In this document: positions 57 through 4,009 of the stretch, piece after piece
How the letters are laid out: each line of letters starts with the position of its first letter
How positions within the stretch are numbered: position 1 is the first letter of the stretch
Sequence record: OR886155.1
DNA from: Escherichia phage FH3
Reading direction: 5' to 3' (one strand)
Length of the DNA: 64,000 nt
Translations under genes and position numbers: made by a program
The notes under the pieces: generated by a model
Database searches by the model: none
What the model saw: the letters and a program-made list of their open reading frames with translations, nothing else
Told to the model about the DNA's origin: nothing

Positions 57-278
57 TTAGTAAACTAAACCTATAGCCTTTGCATCGGGCTGAGGGACTA
101 CCTTTGCGCTAGGGCGATAGCCATCCACTGAACCATTCCAAAGGTTGACACAGGTAATATACCCATCGTCTATGATGTCTGTTTTAATCCAGAAGTGTTT
201 ATCATGACCAAAAACACTTCCGTTTGGCAGCGTGGACAGTTCAGCGGTTTTAAGTGACTGCTTAGAGTCTAGTTTCAT
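57..278 (-). CDS. small early protein, member 1 of a five-copy paralog family
   Basis: ORF track; shares ...G(S/D)VF...FW(I/L)...D...RPS..V(V/M)P(Q/R)PD with ORF 3307-3525 and the G-x-VF core with ORFs 3526-4293. Confidence 0.4.
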   Translation of the reverse strand: MKLDSKQSLKTAELSTLPNGSVFGHDKHFWIKTDIIDDGYITCVNLWNGSVDGYRPSAKVVPQPDAKAIGLVY

Positions 279-817: not shown

Positions 818-837
818 AACACACCTCCAAGAGCCTC

Positions 838-926
838 TAGCGAGGATGACAGGGTTCGAACCTGCATACTCCAATTACTTCTTTAACGACCGCTTAGAAG
901 GCGGGGAAGATACATCCTCGCTAGAA
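838..926 (-). other. tRNA-like structured element (not a canonical tRNA)
   Basis: Minus strand: 9-bp helix GCGAGGATG/CATCCTCGC closing a GCAGG-TTCGAAC-CCTGT T-arm-like hairpin and a CCGC-CTTCTAA-GCGG hairpin; no D-arm could be placed. Confidence 0.25.
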
Positions 927-930
927 GCTC

Positions 931-1371
931 TTATTTATTATTGAAACCCTTGCTCCAGTAATACTTACCGTTGCAAGACCTACTACAAAAATGGTTTTGG
1001 TTTTCTTTGTGGACCTTGTTACCCCTTCTCTCAAAAGATGTGCCACAATTACTACAAATCAAAGTAATGACCACACCCTTAGGTCTGTTCTCTAAGGTCT
1101 TCTTTAAGTGATCATTTGTGCTTAGAATCTGAAGGTTAGATATCTCATCATTGGTTGGATTTTGATCAACATGATCTACCTCTTCCTCCGCAGTAAGATA
1201 CCTCCCTACATGGCAAGACATTAAATACCTTGCATAAGAGATCGTAGTCCTATCTGTGTTAGAGTTGAATAGGTCAACACGCCTCCTCCCATCCTTACTT
1301 GTCCTTAAATACCCCAACCTCCAGTCATTGATGAAGGGGTATTCCAACTCTATTTTCAATACCACCTCCAT
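931..1371 (-). CDS. HNH-family endonuclease (putative homing endonuclease)
   Basis: HVDQNPTNDEISNLQILSTNDH motif plus C-terminal CSNCG...CSRSC zinc-finger-like cluster. Confidence 0.55.
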   Translation of the reverse strand: MEVVLKIELEYPFINDWRLGYLRTSKDGRRRVDLFNSNTDRTTISYARYLMSCHVGRYLTAEEEVDHVDQNPTNDEISNLQILSTNDHLKKTLENRPKGVVITLICSNCGTSFERRGNKVHKENQNHFCSRSCNGKYYWSKGFNNK

Positions 1372-1394: not shown

Positions 1395-1604
1395 TTAACT
1401 AAAGATACGAATGGCTACATCGTGACCAATATGACCGGGAACTTTATGCTGTTCTATTTTCAAACAGTGTTTACAGATACGAGATACACGAGATTCTTTT
1501 CTCTCGACCGGAGTGTCTTTAGCGTGGGTGATATGTAGGTTCTCAGTGATCACCCACTCGTGTTTACATCCAGAATCTTCGGGCTTTTTCTTACGAAAGA
1601 ACAT
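1395..1604 (-). CDS. small Cys/His-rich protein, Zn-ribbon paralog C
   Basis: Internal start MFFRKKK...; CKHEW...CKHC pattern related to the two upstream ORFs. Confidence 0.35.
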   Translation of the reverse strand: MFFRKKKPEDSGCKHEWVITENLHITHAKDTPVERKESRVSRICKHCLKIEQHKVPGHIGHDVAIRIFS

Positions 1605-1612
1605 AACACCCC

Positions 1613-1777
1613 TTAGATCAGATCTGTTTTCTTGTGCAGACCACACACTTTACAGCGAGAGTAGATACGCAACCCTTGTCGCTCTCTGTCAGTAAGTTTA
1701 TTTGTGATCGTCAGTTCATAAGTATGAAGATCTTCCCACTCATGGAAATGAAAGAAGCGTTTGAACCATTTGATCAT
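1613..1777 (-). CDS. small Cys/His-rich protein, Zn-ribbon paralog B (54 aa, below ORF-track cutoff)
   Basis: My translation: MIKWFKRFFHFHEWEDLHTYELTITNKLTDRERQGLRIYSRCKVCGLHKKTDLI; near-identical architecture to paralog A. Confidence 0.35.
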   Translation of the reverse strand: MIKWFKRFFHFHEWEDLHTYELTITNKLTDRERQGLRIYSRCKVCGLHKKTDLI

Positions 1778-2798: not shown

Positions 2799-3306
2799 TT
2801 TTATTTGTTAACTGTTATACGTCCAACCACCTTGCTTGTTACGAATGGCTGACATTGCATGAATCCAAAAGCCTTCCAGTTTCAGAGCACCGTTAGCTAC
2901 TGCATCCATACGTTCAGGGCGGTTCATACGTTTGGTTGATACTTTCATACCTATCTCTCTTTGTTAGTGGAGGCATTATTGCCAGTTGATATAAGGAATA
3001 GCCCTAGTCAGTAGACTAATCCTGACCGCGTACTCATTGCCGACCTTCTCTGCCTAAGAGTTCAGGTTCTAGAGCTATCTCTTATTCCAACTGGTGAAGA
3101 CTCCCTACCCCTAGGAAGTCTCCTGAATCCCAAACTAATACGTACCCCTACATATCAGAAAGTCTTTCGAAAATTAACAGGTTTTAGTCTAGCACCGGAT
3201 GTTCGAGCAAGCTCTCCCTAGCGGTGTGGCATATGCCTGAATTAATAAGTTAATGAGGAACACCCTCACATAGCCCTCTGATAAACACAAGGGCTATAAG
3301 TCGGTG

Positions 3307-3525
3307 TTACTTTTGAGTCAAATACAAATCAGGGCGAGGCATAACAGTGGTTGATGGATTGAAATTACCAACATAACCAGTGCTTAGATTGGCAGCCCTG
3401 CGTAGTCCATTAGAGAGATCATCATCTAGCATCAGCCAGAATTTTTGATCATAAGAGAAAACATCTCCCCCTTTAAGATCTTCCACATTTGCATATTTAG
3501 GAGTCTCAACTACTTTAATTTCCAT
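3307..3525 (-). CDS. small early protein, paralog family member 2
   Basis: VEDLKGGDVF...FWLMLDDD...PRPD; clear similarity to ORF 57-278. Confidence 0.45.
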   Translation of the reverse strand: MEIKVVETPKYANVEDLKGGDVFSYDQKFWLMLDDDLSNGLRRAANLSTGYVGNFNPSTTVMPRPDLYLTQK

Positions 3526-3783
3526 CTACTTACCCTTGTTGGTAATAATAACATCATGAAGAAGAACAATCTTGCTTTTCGAGCTAAGCTTAAGGACTTG
3601 CTTATTTGTCAGACTGAGGACGACACAACCACCATCAGAAGGCTTGGTCTCTTCAATCTGTGGGGTAAATAGCTGAACAACCATGTAGAAATCTGCTCGT
3701 GTTTCCCTGATTTGGAATACATCTCCAAGTTTGAGATCACCAACACACAAAGACGGTTCATTTACTTCAAGATTAATCTTCAT
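3526..3783 (-). CDS. small early protein, paralog family member 3
   Basis: VGDLKLGDVF core; abuts neighbours. Confidence 0.4.
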   Translation of the reverse strand: MKINLEVNEPSLCVGDLKLGDVFQIRETRADFYMVVQLFTPQIEETKPSDGGCVVLSLTNKQVLKLSSKSKIVLLHDVIITNKGK

Positions 3784-4009
3784 CTTTAGCCTCTATATTG
3801 GTTATGTGGAGATCGCTGCGTACTTGGCAAACTTCATCTCGTTTAAAAGGCATGAGCTTTCCAGTTACCACATCAACACAGTTGACATAGTTATCTGCGT
3901 ATAATGTGTCAGTTCTAATGTAAAGGGATTCTTTACGCTCAAACAGAACCCCCGGCTTCATGTTATTTAAGCGAAGCATTGTACGATCGGATTTAATATT
4001 AACTTTCAT
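3773..4009 (-). CDS. small early protein, paralog family member 4
   Basis: LNNMKPGVLF core; overlaps neighbour by a few nt. Confidence 0.4.
   Translation of the reverse strand: MKVNIKSDRTMLRLNNMKPGVLFERKESLYIRTDTLYADNYVNCVDVVTGKLMPFKRDEVCQVRSDLHITNIEAKDED

What the first reader, a model, noticed from the sequence alone, without database searches (positions are those of the whole stretch)
838..926. tRNA-like element lacking a D-arm, upstream of the lipoprotein gene
On the minus strand a 9-bp helix (GCGAGGATG/CATCCTCGC) closes a region with a near-canonical T-arm (GCAGG-TTCGAAC-CCTGT) directly abutting the 3' strand, as in tRNA acceptor/T-arm stacking, and a 4-bp stem with 7-nt loop CTTCTAA. 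I could not place a D-arm, so it is not a standard tRNA. It could be a degenerate tRNA, a tRNA-like regulatory or processing element, or a mobile-element target remnant.
Basis: seen in the sequence. Interest (0 to 1): 0.4.

Follow-up and report, generated by a model that had tools for sequence, protein, structure and literature searches.

The report
Rewired arginine tRNA gene in phages
The "tRNA-like element without a D-arm" is one copy of a widespread, phage-specific arginine tRNA in which half of the D-arm has moved to the other side of the anticodon arm. I found no published description of such a tRNA architecture.

Summary
Window 838-919 (minus strand) holds a 7-bp acceptor stem, an anticodon arm with loop CUUCUAA (UCU, Arg) and a canonical T-arm, but no D-hairpin. 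ARAGORN calls nothing; the Rfam tRNA model scores 29.7 bits against a threshold of 29.

It is not a degenerate remnant. The same 80-82-nt architecture recurs in well over 100 distinct phage sequences: Kuravirus, phi92-like, rV5-like, Asteriusvirus, Sugarlandvirus, Streptomyces phages and IMG/VR contigs. Only 4 of 185,579 prokaryotic species genomes carry it.

All helices covary. They include a non-cloverleaf 3-bp helix that pairs the linker after U8-A9 with a triplet 3' of the anticodon arm. That triplet is followed by a D-loop-like block, UAAnnGGA.

Only Arg anticodons occur (UCU, UCG, CCU). Most copies end in G/A73-CCA and lie in tRNA clusters.

In sister Kuraviruses a canonical tRNA-Arg(UCU) occupies the same locus. 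The phage uses AGA for 22% of its Arg codons.

Best reading: a functional tRNA-Arg(UCU) with a topologically rewired core. The window copy belongs to a subclass that lacks an encoded CCA and sits on a 12-14-bp leader/trailer helix. Charging and decoding are inferred, not shown. I found no published description.

The parts
838..919 (-). Whole rewired tRNA-Arg(UCU) gene: 82 model positions, namely nucleotides 1-73 equivalent plus CUA where most family members have CCA
   Evidence: Family model R1 scores it 95.6 bits, E 6e-24, as a full-length match, and it is the only hit in the window. The Rfam tRNA model gives 29.7 bits over 841-919.
913..919 (-). Acceptor stem, 5' strand (GAGGAUG). It pairs with 842-848.
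   Evidence: 7 of 7 pairs in the window copy. All seven pairs covary in the family, 99.2% of cells paired.
910..912 (-). U8-A9-U linker, invariant in the family
   Evidence: Invariant columns 8-10 of alignment A1. They were part of my extraction regex, but are also present in the hits found by BLAST.
907..909 (-). Helix 2, 5' strand (CUU). Topologically it corresponds to D-stem positions 23-25 and runs straight into the anticodon stem.
   Evidence: It pairs with AAG at 878-880. In the family: 100% paired in A1, with C-G invariant, UA/GC/AU at the second pair and CG/GC/UA at the third. In the unbiased set, 79/79 and 76/79 paired with four Watson-Crick types.
889..906 (-). Position-26 equivalent (C906) plus the anticodon arm: stem 905-901 with 893-889 (4 bp plus a C.U mismatch) and loop CUUCUAA at 900-894. 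The anticodon U34 C35 U36 is 898-896.
   Evidence: The stem covaries. Across all of IMG/VR only Arg anticodons occur on this scaffold.
881..888 (-). Connector C-GUUAAAG, which joins the 3' end of the anticodon stem to the 3' strand of helix 2. It takes the place of the variable loop.
   Evidence: C-GUUAA is invariant in subfamily A, though it was fixed in the first search pattern. It is 8 nt here, and 5 nt or 3-4 nt in the other subfamilies. Columns 14 and 39 covary as A:C, C:A, C:G, A:U and U:G.
878..880 (-). Helix 2, 3' strand (AAG). Topologically it corresponds to D-stem positions 10-12.
866..877 (-). D-loop-like block UAAUUGGAGUAU. Equivalents: A14 = 876, A15 = 875, G18 G19 = 872-871, A20 = 870, A21 = 867, U48 = 866.
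   Evidence: UAA-nn-GGA is present in 76 of 79 sequences found with an anchor that leaves this region free. It resembles the E. coli argU D-loop AGUUGGAUA. Moving this block in silico makes ARAGORN, 55 members tRNA-Arg.
849..865 (-). T-arm GCAGG-UUCGAAC-CCUGU
   Evidence: The stem covaries.
842..848 (-). Acceptor stem, 3' strand (CAUCCUC)
838..841 (-). G73 discriminator followed by CUA instead of CCA
   Evidence: In that sample 51 family members have N73-CCA and 18 do not.
920..933 (-). 5' leader strand of the extended helix (UAAGAGCUUCUAGC). It includes the HNH stop codon UAA at 933-931.
   Evidence: It pairs with 828-841. Bas93 has A where the window has G835, turning a G.U pair into A-U. 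The hairpin class shows 13-15 of 16 leader/trailer pairs, against 5.8 of 16 in the CCA class.
828..841 (-). 3' trailer strand of the extended helix (GCUAGAGGCUCUUG). It ends at the first G of the GGAGG Shine-Dalgarno sequence of the lipoprotein gene (ATG 817-815).
   Evidence: The lipoprotein ORF matches Pfam Phage_lipoprotein at E 1.7e-36.
931..1371 (-). Neighbouring HNH_3 endonuclease gene, a likely homing endonuclease. It is context for allele turnover, not part of the RNA.
   Evidence: Pfam HNH_3, 24.7 bits against a cutoff of 24.8. It is 66% identical to the Bas91 'homing endonuclease', which lies 5' of a canonical tRNA-Arg.

Best explanation
Window 838-919 (minus strand) is a gene for a structurally rewired tRNA-Arg(UCU).

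**Structure.** The RNA keeps the 7-bp acceptor stem, U8-A9, the anticodon arm, the T-arm and discriminator G73 of a normal tRNA-Arg. The block equivalent to nucleotides 10-21 (D-stem 5' strand plus D-loop) lies between the anticodon arm and the T-arm instead of before the anticodon arm. The strand that follows U8-A9 (U-CUU, equivalent to 22-25) pairs with AAG-U downstream. This forms a short D-stem analogue that stacks on the anticodon stem. The following UAAUUGGAGUAU supplies the equivalents of A14, A15, G18, G19, A20 and A21 for the usual elbow contacts. The L-shape could therefore be kept with a different backbone path.

**Proposed life cycle (inferred, not shown).**
1. It is transcribed with the flanking minus-strand genes.
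2. It is cut out of its 12-14-bp leader/trailer helix by RNase P at the 5' end and by a 3' processing activity.
3. The host CCA-adding enzyme supplies CCA.
4. Host ArgRS charges it, using the A20 equivalent, C35, U36 and G73.
5. It reads AGA (and AGG), which this phage uses far more than E. coli does.

**Family.** It is one allele of a phage-specific family with at least three subfamilies. In Kuravirus it replaces the canonical tRNA-Arg(UCU) found at the same locus in sister phages.

**Shown versus inferred.** Shown: the conserved architecture, the covariation, the Arg-only anticodons, the genomic contexts and the allelic replacement. Inferred: folding into an L-shape, processing, charging and decoding. 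Why the rewired form is kept is unknown.
For: 1. **Recurrence.** blastn finds 76-82% identical copies in phi92-like, rV5-like, Asteriusvirus, Mydovirus, Sugarlandvirus and Streptomyces phages (sequences). Pattern scans of IMG/VR give 80 and 114 stretches.
2. **Covariation.** In alignment A1 (55 distinct sequences), 98.4% of cells are paired against 66.8% in shuffles (0/500). 18 of 20 pairs show two-sided changes, and slid controls reach at most 47%. The top 14 MI/APC column pairs are exactly the four helices, including 12-41 and 13-40.
3. **Independent confirmation.** An anchor that leaves the middle region free gives 79 distinct sequences. Helix 2 is paired in 79/79 and 76/79 with four Watson-Crick types, and UAA-nn-GGA is present in 76/79.
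4. **Anticodons.** Scans that exclude UCU find only CCU (one) and UCG (one), and none with position 35 other than C (a further UCG is L059a).
5. **3' ends.** N73 is G or A in 73 of 79 sequences. CCA is encoded in 45 of 79 and 51 of 69.
6. **Context.** 62 of 72 IMG/VR loci hold other tRNAs. Canonical Arg tRNAs nearby are mostly ACG. Of the five 'tct' calls, I checked two as ARAGORN readings of the rewired gene itself and two as separate canonical genes; the fifth (L068) I did not resolve. The phi92, A73 and VLCpiM5b stretches examined show no canonical tRNA-Arg.
7. **Same locus.** phiEco32, MN05, SGF2, KM01, O18-011, NJ01 and Bas91 carry a canonical tRNA-Arg(tct) between the same genes. The window, 1-6af, Bas93, Bas94 and TH42 carry the rewired one and no canonical one. 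Model R1 gives 95-100 bits against 21-27 bits.
8. **Interchangeability.** In Klebsiella phage K18PH07C1 the rewired gene is split by an insert that carries an HNH ORF plus a canonical tRNA-Arg(tct).
9. **Codon usage.** AGA is 22% and AGG 11% of Arg codons in the window ORFs. A related Kuravirus is reported at 20% AGA against rare use in E. coli K12 (PMC9965538).
10. **In-silico transposition.** Moving the 14-nt block makes ARAGORN, 55 members tRNA-Arg, against 0/55 for the native sequences. The block resembles the argU D-loop.
Against: - No expression, processing, charging or decoding data exist for any member.
- Helix 2 is only 3 bp. RNAalifold does not predict it, so it rests on covariation alone.
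- The transposition test is not very specific. Two control placements of a 14-nt block also give 42-46 of 55 ARAGORN calls.
- The invariance of GUUAA, GUAA and GGAGUAUG in A1 is partly imposed by the first search pattern. The second, unbiased anchor removes this only for the UAA-nn-GGA block and helix 2.
- The window copy lacks CCA, and its acceptor stem continues into a long duplex. That could hinder RNase P and 3' trimming.
- Two Kuraviruses (myPSH2311, myPSH1131) show no tRNA of either kind in the parts I fetched, so the gene is dispensable.
- Whether EF-Tu and the ribosome accept the altered core is unknown.
Confidence: 0.7

Rival explanations
1. A tRNA mimic or decoy rather than a decoder. 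The RNA presents a tRNA-Arg(UCU) anticodon arm and acceptor/T domain to soak up or mislead a tRNA-directed host nuclease or toxin, or another tRNA-binding factor. It does not take part in translation.
For: - The anticodon loop and acceptor/T domain are strictly kept while the core is altered.
- Phage tRNAs are reported to counter tRNA-targeting defences (titles and abstracts of PMC10264068 and PMC11555353).
- The Kuravirus locus turns over among at least four unrelated canonical alleles plus the rewired one, as expected in an arms race.
Against: - A decoy has no need for the A20-equivalent block, G/A73 and CCA together, nor for anticodons confined to decodable Arg triplets. UCG and CCU variants exist.
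- It fills the otherwise empty UCU slot in tRNA clusters.
- It is swapped for canonical tRNA-Arg(UCU) genes.
- No tRNA-Arg(UCU)-specific phage-defence nuclease was identified here.
Confidence: 0.12
2. Mainly an RNA processing or stability element. A tRNA-shaped cap on a long hairpin would act as an RNase P / RNase III / RNase Z cleavage signal, or as a protective stem, between the HNH and lipoprotein cistrons. Any tRNA function would be secondary or lost in this copy.
For: - The window copy lacks CCA and sits on a helix of 19-21 bp.
- Twelve members share this leader/trailer pairing with unrelated sequences, 13-15 of 16 positions paired against 5.8 of 16 in the CCA class.
- The helix spans the HNH stop codon and ends at the Shine-Dalgarno sequence of the next gene.
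Against: - Hairpin-class copies keep every family invariant and score as high as CCA-bearing ones (95-100 bits).
- 7 of 12 hairpin-class copies lie within 300 nt of other tRNA genes, so they are not special to mRNA-embedded sites.
- There is no U-tract terminator at the window copy.
- This reading cannot explain the CCA-bearing majority of the family.
Confidence: 0.1
3. A decaying tRNA pseudogene left after the HNH endonuclease gene inserted next to, or into, a tRNA-Arg gene.
For: - An HNH gene abuts it.
- The locus holds 3' remnants of older tRNAs in TH42 and Bas91.
- ARAGORN does not call it.
Against: - The same non-cloverleaf layout occurs in more than 100 distinct sequences from unrelated phages, with compensatory changes in every helix.
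- Bas94 carries it with no HNH gene next to it.
- The sequence is identical in Bas93, whose flanks are only about 90% identical.
Confidence: 0.04
4. A remnant of a mobile-element attachment site that copies the 3' half of a host tRNA gene.
For: tRNA 3' halves are common integration targets (general knowledge). The T-arm resembles that of many tRNA-Arg genes.
Against: - No match to any of 5,426 complete E. coli genomes at E<=1.
- The element is a full-length structure with its own 5' acceptor strand.
- No integrase gene is annotated in the stretches of sister phages I examined.
- Only 4 hits in 185,579 prokaryotic genomes, all on metagenome-assembled contigs.
Confidence: 0.01

Closest known systems
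Canonical phage-encoded tRNA-Arg(UCU), e.g. the single tRNA of phiEco32-like Kuraviruses, and host argU
   Same: Same locus in sister phages. Shared features: anticodon loop CUUCUAA, 7-bp acceptor stem, U8-A9, a GGUUCGAnnCC-type T-loop, G/A73, and a D-loop-type sequence with GG followed by A. The presumed role is also the same: supplying a decoder for AGA, which the phage uses often and the host rarely.
   Different: There is no D-hairpin between positions 9 and 26. The D-stem is formed by two strands that flank the anticodon arm, and the D-loop-like block lies just before the T-arm. The molecule is 80-82 nt. ARAGORN misses it, and the Rfam tRNA model scores it only at threshold.
D-arm-lacking mitochondrial tRNAs, e.g. 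metazoan or nematode mt-tRNA-Ser(AGY/UCU) (review PMC7609411)
   Same: No conventional D-arm hairpin. A short linker joins the acceptor and anticodon stems.
   Different: In those tRNAs the D-arm is lost and replaced by a flexible connector, and the T-arm is often shortened. They work with specialised mitochondrial factors (PMC7609411). Here the T-arm is fully canonical, and a D-stem analogue plus a D-loop-like block are kept elsewhere in the chain. ARAGORN in mitochondrial mode does not call it a D-replacement tRNA.
tRNA-like structures at the 3' ends of plant RNA virus genomes, and the tRNA-like domain of tmRNA
   Same: They mimic the tRNA L-shape with a backbone path that differs from the cloverleaf (my own knowledge of the TYMV tRNA-like structure and of tmRNA).
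   Different: Those are domains of much larger RNAs. They build the acceptor arm with a pseudoknot or from distant 5' and 3' ends. tmRNA has no anticodon arm, and the plant-virus structures are not used for decoding. No Rfam tRNA-like-structure or tmRNA model matched here, and ARAGORN found no tmRNA. This element is a free-standing, tRNA-sized gene with a normal acceptor stem and an Arg anticodon.
Circularly permuted and split tRNA genes (Cyanidioschyzon merolae, Nanoarchaeum); my own knowledge
   Same: The order of tRNA segments in the gene differs from the canonical order.
   Different: Those genes are processed back into a mature tRNA with the normal order. Here the order 1-9 / 22-43 / connector / 10-21 / 48-76 cannot be restored by rotation or by joining halves, so the mature RNA must keep the rewired topology.
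allo-tRNAs and other 8/4 or 9/3 tRNAs found in metagenomes and phages (PMC5389517)
   Same: Non-standard tRNA architectures discovered by sequence mining, some of them in phages.
   Different: Those change the acceptor/T-stem lengths and keep a D-arm hairpin. That paper contains no occurrence of the term 'tRNAArg'. Here the acceptor/T arrangement is the normal 7/5 and the D-arm connectivity is what has changed.
Homing endonucleases in phage tRNA gene regions (T4 SegB, PMC2330249)
   Same: An endonuclease gene sits next to tRNA genes, and whole tRNA-region alleles are inherited preferentially. The HNH_3 gene at 931-1371 and the 'HNH + tRNA-Arg' inserts fit this pattern.
   Different: SegB is a GIY-YIG enzyme whereas these are HNH_3. 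Cleavage sites and homing were not tested here. This explains turnover of alleles at the locus, not the rewired fold.

Membership tests
Canonical cloverleaf tRNA (Rfam RF00005) | 7-bp acceptor stem closing the molecule | tested here: met
   GAGGAUG pairs with CAUCCUC, 7 of 7 pairs.
Canonical cloverleaf tRNA (Rfam RF00005) | T-arm: 5-bp stem with a 7-nt UUCRAnY loop, stacked on the acceptor stem | tested here: met
   GCAGG-UUCGAAC-CCUGU, directly followed by the acceptor 3' strand.
Canonical cloverleaf tRNA (Rfam RF00005) | Anticodon arm: 5-bp stem and a 7-nt loop with U33 and a purine at position 37 | tested here: met
   Loop C-U-UCU-A-A. The stem is 4 bp plus a C.U mismatch at 27:43 in the window, and that position is unpaired in 13 of 55 members.
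Canonical cloverleaf tRNA (Rfam RF00005) | D-arm hairpin between positions 9 and 26 | tested here: not met
   The Rfam alignment deletes it, leaving 4 nt where the model has 15. ARAGORN makes no call in default or relaxed mode, and of 55 native family members.
Canonical cloverleaf tRNA (Rfam RF00005) | Score at or above the Rfam gathering threshold | tested here: met
   29.7 bits against 29, so only marginally.
Canonical cloverleaf tRNA (Rfam RF00005) | 3' CCA end, encoded or added | tested here: not met
   The window copy has G73-CUA. Post-transcriptional addition is possible but was not testable.
Canonical cloverleaf tRNA (Rfam RF00005) | Aminoacylation and decoding on the ribosome | not testable with these tools
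   No expression or biochemical data were available.
Rewired phage tRNA-Arg family (defined here, model R1) | Helix 2: the triplet after U8-A9-U pairs with the triplet just before a GUAA motif located 3' of the anticodon arm | tested here: met
   Window CUU (909-907) pairs with AAG (880-878). In the family it is 100% paired with covariation.
Rewired phage tRNA-Arg family (defined here, model R1) | D-loop-like block UAA-nn-GGA between helix 2 and the T-arm | tested here: met
   UAAUUGGAGUAU at 877-866. It is present in 76 of 79 members found with the unbiased anchor.
Rewired phage tRNA-Arg family (defined here, model R1) | Arg anticodon (N-C-U/G) and a total length of 80-83 nt | tested here: met
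   UCU, and 82 model positions.
Rewired phage tRNA-Arg family (defined here, model R1) | High full-length score with the family covariance model, well separated from canonical tRNA-Arg | tested here: met
   95.6 bits against 21-27 bits for canonical alleles at the same locus. The window sequence was one of the 55 training sequences, so a high score is partly expected.
D-arm-lacking mitochondrial-type tRNA | The D-arm is replaced by a short unstructured connector, with no D-stem or D-loop equivalent elsewhere | tested here: not met
   A covarying D-stem analogue and a GG-containing D-loop-like block exist downstream of the anticodon arm. ARAGORN -mt gives no D-replacement call.
tRNA pseudogene or att-site remnant | A partial tRNA lacking purifying selection, or sharing a 3' half with a host tRNA | tested here: not met
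   Compensatory changes occur in all helices across unrelated phages. There is no match in 5,426 E. coli genomes.
Circularly permuted tRNA gene | The segment order is a rotation of the canonical order and can be restored by circularisation and cleavage | tested here: not met
   The order read from the alignment is 1-9, 22-43, connector, 10-21, 48-76. This is a transposition, not a rotation.

The most novel reading that the evidence does not exclude
A natural tRNA with a rewired core is made by many phages, including easily handled E. coli phages. In it the D-stem 5' strand and D-loop are relocated to the 3' side of the anticodon arm, so the D-stem encloses the anticodon arm. The RNA is charged by host ArgRS and used by the ordinary bacterial ribosome without dedicated factors. 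It would be the first functional tRNA known to keep the L-shape with a different backbone topology. A possible reason for its spread is that the altered D-region, as RNA or as DNA, escapes tRNA-directed nucleases or the homing endonucleases that churn this locus.
Probability: 0.5. Interest if true: 0.9.

Novelty: new variant of a known kind. Interest (0 to 1): 0.8.

Why it matters
The cloverleaf connectivity of tRNA is treated as almost universal. Known exceptions either delete arms (mitochondria) or change stem lengths (tRNA-Sec, allo-tRNAs). A conserved family that keeps all the pieces but wires them in a different order would matter in four ways.

1. It would show that the tRNA fold tolerates a change of topology in a normal bacterial translation system.
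2. It would give structural biologists and tRNA engineers a natural new scaffold, found in phages of E. coli K-12 where every step can be tested.
3. It would correct phage annotation. These genes are currently unannotated or labelled 'tRNA-OTHER', 'tRNA-Undet' or 'tRNA-Val(aac)', and at least one phage (TH42) is listed as having no tRNA.
4. It would open the question of what selects for the rewired form. That question ties into current work on tRNA-targeting phage defence and on homing endonucleases in tRNA regions.

Tried and rejected
- **ARAGORN.** Relaxed, intron and mitochondrial modes gave nothing useful at the element. There was one spurious low-threshold call elsewhere, and one 53-nt 'TV-loop' call that reuses the leader as an acceptor.
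- **Rfam at E<=10 around the element.** Only chance hits besides tRNA: C0299, MIR8562, snoR1.
- **Promoter and terminator scan.** No terminator or promoter at the element.
- **Solo-gene idea for the hairpin class.** I proposed that CCA-less, hairpin-embedded copies are 'solo' genes inside mRNAs. Not supported: 7 of 12 lie within 300 nt of another tRNA.
- **Universality in Kuravirus.** I proposed that every Kuravirus has one tRNA-Arg of either kind. Not supported: myPSH2311 and myPSH1131 show none in the parts fetched.
- **Relatedness of the HNH genes.** The HNH genes of the window and of the Klebsiella phage insert are not related (E 0.28). The window HNH is related to that of Bas91 (66% identity).
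- **A fourth Watson-Crick pair in helix 2 (columns 14/39).** These columns covary mostly as A:C and C:A. I treat them as a non-canonical layer like 26:44, not as a standard pair.
- **RNAalifold.** It recovers the three long helices but not helix 2.
- **E. coli genomes.** No match.
- **Literature.** Nine full-text searches, including one for the conserved sequence strings, plus four papers read, found no description of this fold. One catalogue of candidate structured RNAs lists a motif, DNAVirus_2961, that sometimes overlaps ARAGORN tRNA-Arg calls. It could be this family, but its supplements were not available.
Full report
**What is in the window**

On the minus strand, between an HNH endonuclease gene (931-1371) and a phage lipoprotein gene (ATG at 817), lies this sequence:

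UAAGAGCUUCUAGC-GAGGAUG-UAU-CUU-C-CCCGC-CUUCUAA-GCGGU-C-GUUAAAG-AAG-UAAUUGGAGUAU-GCAGG-UUCGAAC-CCUGU-CAUCCUC-G-CUAGAGGCUCUUG

There is no D-hairpin.

- ARAGORN finds no tRNA anywhere in the 64 kb, and nothing meaningful here in relaxed, intron or mitochondrial modes.
- The Rfam tRNA model gives the only hit of the window, 841-919(-), at 29.7 bits against a gathering score of 29. Its alignment deletes the D-arm and inserts 20 nt in the variable region.
- The region folds at -46.7 kcal/mol, z = -5.6.
- The helix is longer than reported: 19-21 bp, from the HNH stop codon to the first G of the next gene's Shine-Dalgarno sequence.

**Where the window comes from, and what relatives have at this spot**

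The window is a Kuravirus (phiEco32-like podophage), 99.8% identical to Escherichia phage 1-6af over the kilobase compared.

- phiEco32, MN05, SGF2, KM01, O18-011, NJ01 and Bas91 carry an ordinary 75-77-nt tRNA-Arg(tct) at the same place, just upstream of the lipoprotein gene. ARAGORN calls all of these.
- The canonical alleles are very diverse, with at least four unrelated types.
- The window, 1-6af, Bas93, Bas94 and TH42 carry the D-hairpin-less element instead and have no canonical tRNA there.
- TH42 still shows the 3' remnants of two earlier canonical alleles downstream of the element.
- A published survey lists TH42 as having zero tRNAs (PMC9965538).

**The element is a conserved family, not a relic**

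A sensitive blastn with the 110-nt region found copies 76-82% identical in very different phages:
- phi92-like Justusliebigvirus, inside the tRNA cluster between tRNA-Leu and tRNA-Ser
- rV5-like Vequintavirinae
- Klebsiella Mydovirus
- jumbo Asteriusvirus
- T5-like Sugarlandvirus
- Streptomyces phages

They are mostly unannotated. Some are labelled 'tRNA-OTHER' or 'tRNA-Undet', and one is labelled tRNA-Val(aac).

A pattern built from the conserved middle part found 80 stretches in IMG/VR. From these, together with the phage-record loci, I extracted 57 distinct full-length sequences (55 of them form alignment A1). All have a 7-bp acceptor stem and are 81-82 nt long.

The same pattern over one genome for each of 185,579 prokaryotic species gave 57 stretches. 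Only four are real members, and all four are on metagenome-assembled contigs. None of 5,426 complete E. coli genomes matches. The family is therefore essentially phage-specific.

**Structure**

The 55-sequence alignment A1 has no indels except one position. On the structure I proposed:
- 98.4% of cells form standard pairs, against 66.8% in shuffles (0 of 500 reach the observed value).
- 18 of 20 pairs show changes on both sides.
- Shifting the partners by 1-3 columns drops pairing to 47% or less.

An MI/APC scan made without any structure ranks as its top 14 column pairs exactly the pairs of four helices. Three are the acceptor, anticodon and T stems.

The fourth ('helix 2') is not part of a cloverleaf. 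The three nucleotides after U8-A9-U pair with three nucleotides that lie 8 nt downstream of the anticodon stem. The observed pairings are CUC/GAG, CGC/GCG, CAC/GUG, CAG/CUG, CAU/AUG, CGG/CCG, CGU/ACG and, in the window, CUU/AAG. The next layer (columns 14 and 39) covaries as A:C, C:A, C:G, A:U and U:G, like the non-canonical 26:44 pair.

The first pattern fixed part of the sequence, so I repeated the search with an anchor that leaves the whole middle free: GTATC-N8-CTTCTAA-N29-33-GGTTCGA. It found 114 stretches and 79 distinct sequences.
- Helix 2 is paired in 79/79 and 76/79 cases with four Watson-Crick types.
- A block UAA-nn-GGA follows it in 76/79.
- Three subfamilies differ in the length of the connector: 8 nt (the window type), 5 nt, or 3-4 nt.

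RNAalifold recovers the three long helices but not the 3-bp helix 2. Helix 2 therefore rests on covariation, not on energy.

**Reading the topology**

The strand after U8-A9 runs straight into the 5' strand of the anticodon stem, as positions 22-25 and 26 do in a normal tRNA. The partner strand is followed by A-A-n-n-G-G-A-…-A-U and then the T-stem. That matches A14, R15, 16, 17, G18, G19, A20, A21 and U48.

The E. coli argU D-loop is AGUUGGAUA; the family has AAUUGGAGUA.

The gene order is thus 1-9, 22-43, connector, 10-21, 48-76. The block 10-21 has been transposed to the other side of the anticodon arm.

Putting the 14-nt block back between A9 and the next base in silico makes ARAGORN call all 55 members tRNA-Arg with the right anticodon. 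It of 55 native sequences and 0 of 55 with the block deleted. The test is not very specific, because two other placements also give 42-46 calls.

That the rewired chain can still form the L-shape is an inference from standard tRNA tertiary contacts: U8-A14-A21, 15-48, and G18/G19 with the T-loop. I could not model it in 3D.

**Why I think it is a working tRNA-Arg**

- *Anticodons.* Three scans of IMG/VR that exclude UCU one position at a time found one CCU and one UCG on this scaffold, plus a further UCG in the first scan. None had position 35 other than C.
- *Ends.* The discriminator is G or A in 73 of 79 sequences, and CCA is encoded in most. C35, U/G36, A20 and A/G73 are the known E. coli ArgRS identity set (my own knowledge).
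- *Context.* 62 of 72 IMG/VR loci contain other tRNA genes and 49 contain three or more. Canonical Arg tRNAs next to it are mostly ACG. Of five ARAGORN 'tct' calls, I checked two as readings of the rewired gene itself and two as separate canonical genes; the fifth I did not resolve.
- *Gap filling.* The phi92, A73 and VLCpiM5b tRNA-cluster stretches I examined have no canonical tRNA-Arg.
- *Allelic swap.* In Kuravirus it alternates with canonical tRNA-Arg(UCU) at one locus with no other gene change that I noticed nearby.
- *Replacement by a canonical gene.* In Klebsiella phage K18PH07C1 the rewired gene, intact in its sibling VLCpiM5b, is split after GGAGU by an insert of about 490 bp. The insert carries an HNH ORF and a canonical tRNA-Arg(tct), as if the invader brought a replacement.
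- *Codon usage.* The window's ORFs use AGA for 22% and AGG for 11% of Arg codons. A related Kuravirus is reported at about 20% AGA, against rare use in E. coli K12 (PMC9965538).

None of this shows expression, charging or decoding.

**Special features of the window copy**

It has G73-CUA instead of G73-CCA. Its leader and trailer pair for 12-14 further base pairs. One G.U pair here (U926/G835) is an A-U pair in Bas93.

This is a class, not an accident. In one sample, 51 members with CCA show random leader/trailer pairing (5.8 of 16). Of the 18 members without CCA, about a dozen show 13-15 of 16 positions paired, with unrelated sequences.

I cannot explain this class. It is not tied to genes standing alone inside mRNAs, and the window copy has no terminator-like U-tract. 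Maturation would need RNase P, a 3' endo- or exonuclease and the host CCA-adding enzyme. RNase III cleavage of the long stem is possible. All of this is inference.

**The neighbouring HNH gene**

ORF 931-1371 is an HNH_3 protein, scoring just below the Pfam cutoff (24.7 against 24.8 bits). It is 66% identical to the Bas91 'homing endonuclease', which sits 5' of a canonical tRNA-Arg and overlaps its start. O18-011 has the same layout. Bas94 has the rewired tRNA without any HNH gene.

Together with the remnants in TH42 and the insert in K18PH07C1, this points to endonuclease-driven replacement of tRNA-Arg alleles, as known for T4 SegB in its tRNA region (PMC2330249). That explains turnover at the locus. 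It does not explain the rewired fold.

**Known or new**

Rfam 15 has no separate family for it. Nine full-text searches, one of them for the conserved sequence strings, and reading of four papers found no description. These included a review of non-canonical tRNAs, the tRNA-fragment paper and the Kuravirus survey; the novel-cloverleaf paper was seen only in search results, with no occurrence of 'tRNAArg'.

A catalogue of candidate structured RNAs in viruses mentions a motif, DNAVirus_2961, that sometimes overlaps ARAGORN tRNA-Arg calls. It may be the same thing, but I could not check. Papers in subscription journals are outside the searched library.

**Verdict**

I rate it a new variant of a known kind: a tRNA, but with a connectivity not described for any functional tRNA.
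- Confidence that the conserved rewired architecture is real: about 0.95.
- Confidence that it is a charged, decoding tRNA-Arg: about 0.7.

Noticed in passing
L016 (Klebsiella phage K18PH07C1) 1501-2075: The rewired tRNA-Arg gene is split after GGAGU by an insert of about 490 bp. The insert carries a 143-aa HNH-type ORF (1551-1982) and a canonical tRNA-Arg(tct) (1959-2033) that overlaps the ORF's end. The 3' part of the rewired gene resumes near 2048. The sibling phage VLCpiM5b has the gene intact.
   Followed up: partly
L009 (Escherichia virus TH42) 1576-1750; L001 (Bas91) 1100-1264: Downstream of the current tRNA-Arg allele lie 3' remnants of two other tRNAs (…AGAGGGTTCGAATCCTTCCGTCCCGACCA and …GGTTCGATTCCAGATAGTCCACCA). 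They look like a fossil record of serial allele replacement at this locus.
   Followed up: partly
window 931-1371 (-): This HNH_3 endonuclease gene ends in the stop codon that forms the base of the tRNA hairpin. It is 66% identical to the Bas91 homing endonuclease, which lies next to a canonical tRNA-Arg. Related HNH genes therefore accompany different tRNA-Arg alleles.
   Followed up: partly
IMG/VR loci L161-L226 (e.g. L161, L163, L168, L171, L178): There are two further subfamilies of the rewired tRNA-Arg. One is 80 nt with a 5-nt connector (…U-GAAA-GGG-UAAUUGGACACAU). The other is 81-82 nt with a 3-4-nt connector and a longer A-rich segment before the T-arm (…UAAAUGGAUGAAAAU).
   Followed up: partly
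L102 (contig binned as Neisseriaceae MAG) 1458-1536 and 2103-2182: Two family copies lie on one contig. The first has a disrupted T-arm and acceptor; the second is a divergent but complete variant (68 bits with R1).
   Followed up: no
L006 (phi92) 3133-3208; L012 1038-1112; L016 1065-1139: ARAGORN reports 'tRNA-???' with a two-base anticodon for neighbouring phage tRNAs, for example the phi92 gene annotated tRNA-Lys(TTT). This suggests unusual anticodon loops in other tRNAs of the same clusters.
   Followed up: no
window 57-278, 3307-3525, 3526-3783, 3773-4009 (all -): Four small ORFs (72-85 aa) look like paralogues of one another, sharing a G-[DS]-V-F … F-W/Y … D pattern. Their function is unknown.
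   Followed up: no
window 1395-1646, 1613-1777, 1787-2122 (all -): Three small ORFs share a motif (F-H/C-x-H-E/D-W … C-K-x-C). They look like paralogous zinc-ribbon-type early proteins.
   Followed up: no
L158 (myPSH2311) and L159 (myPSH1131): These two Kuraviruses are listed with 0 tRNAs. They show neither a canonical nor a rewired tRNA-Arg in the 49 kb and 31 kb I fetched. Their records also contain repeated ATP-grasp gene segments that suggest assembly problems.
   Followed up: partly
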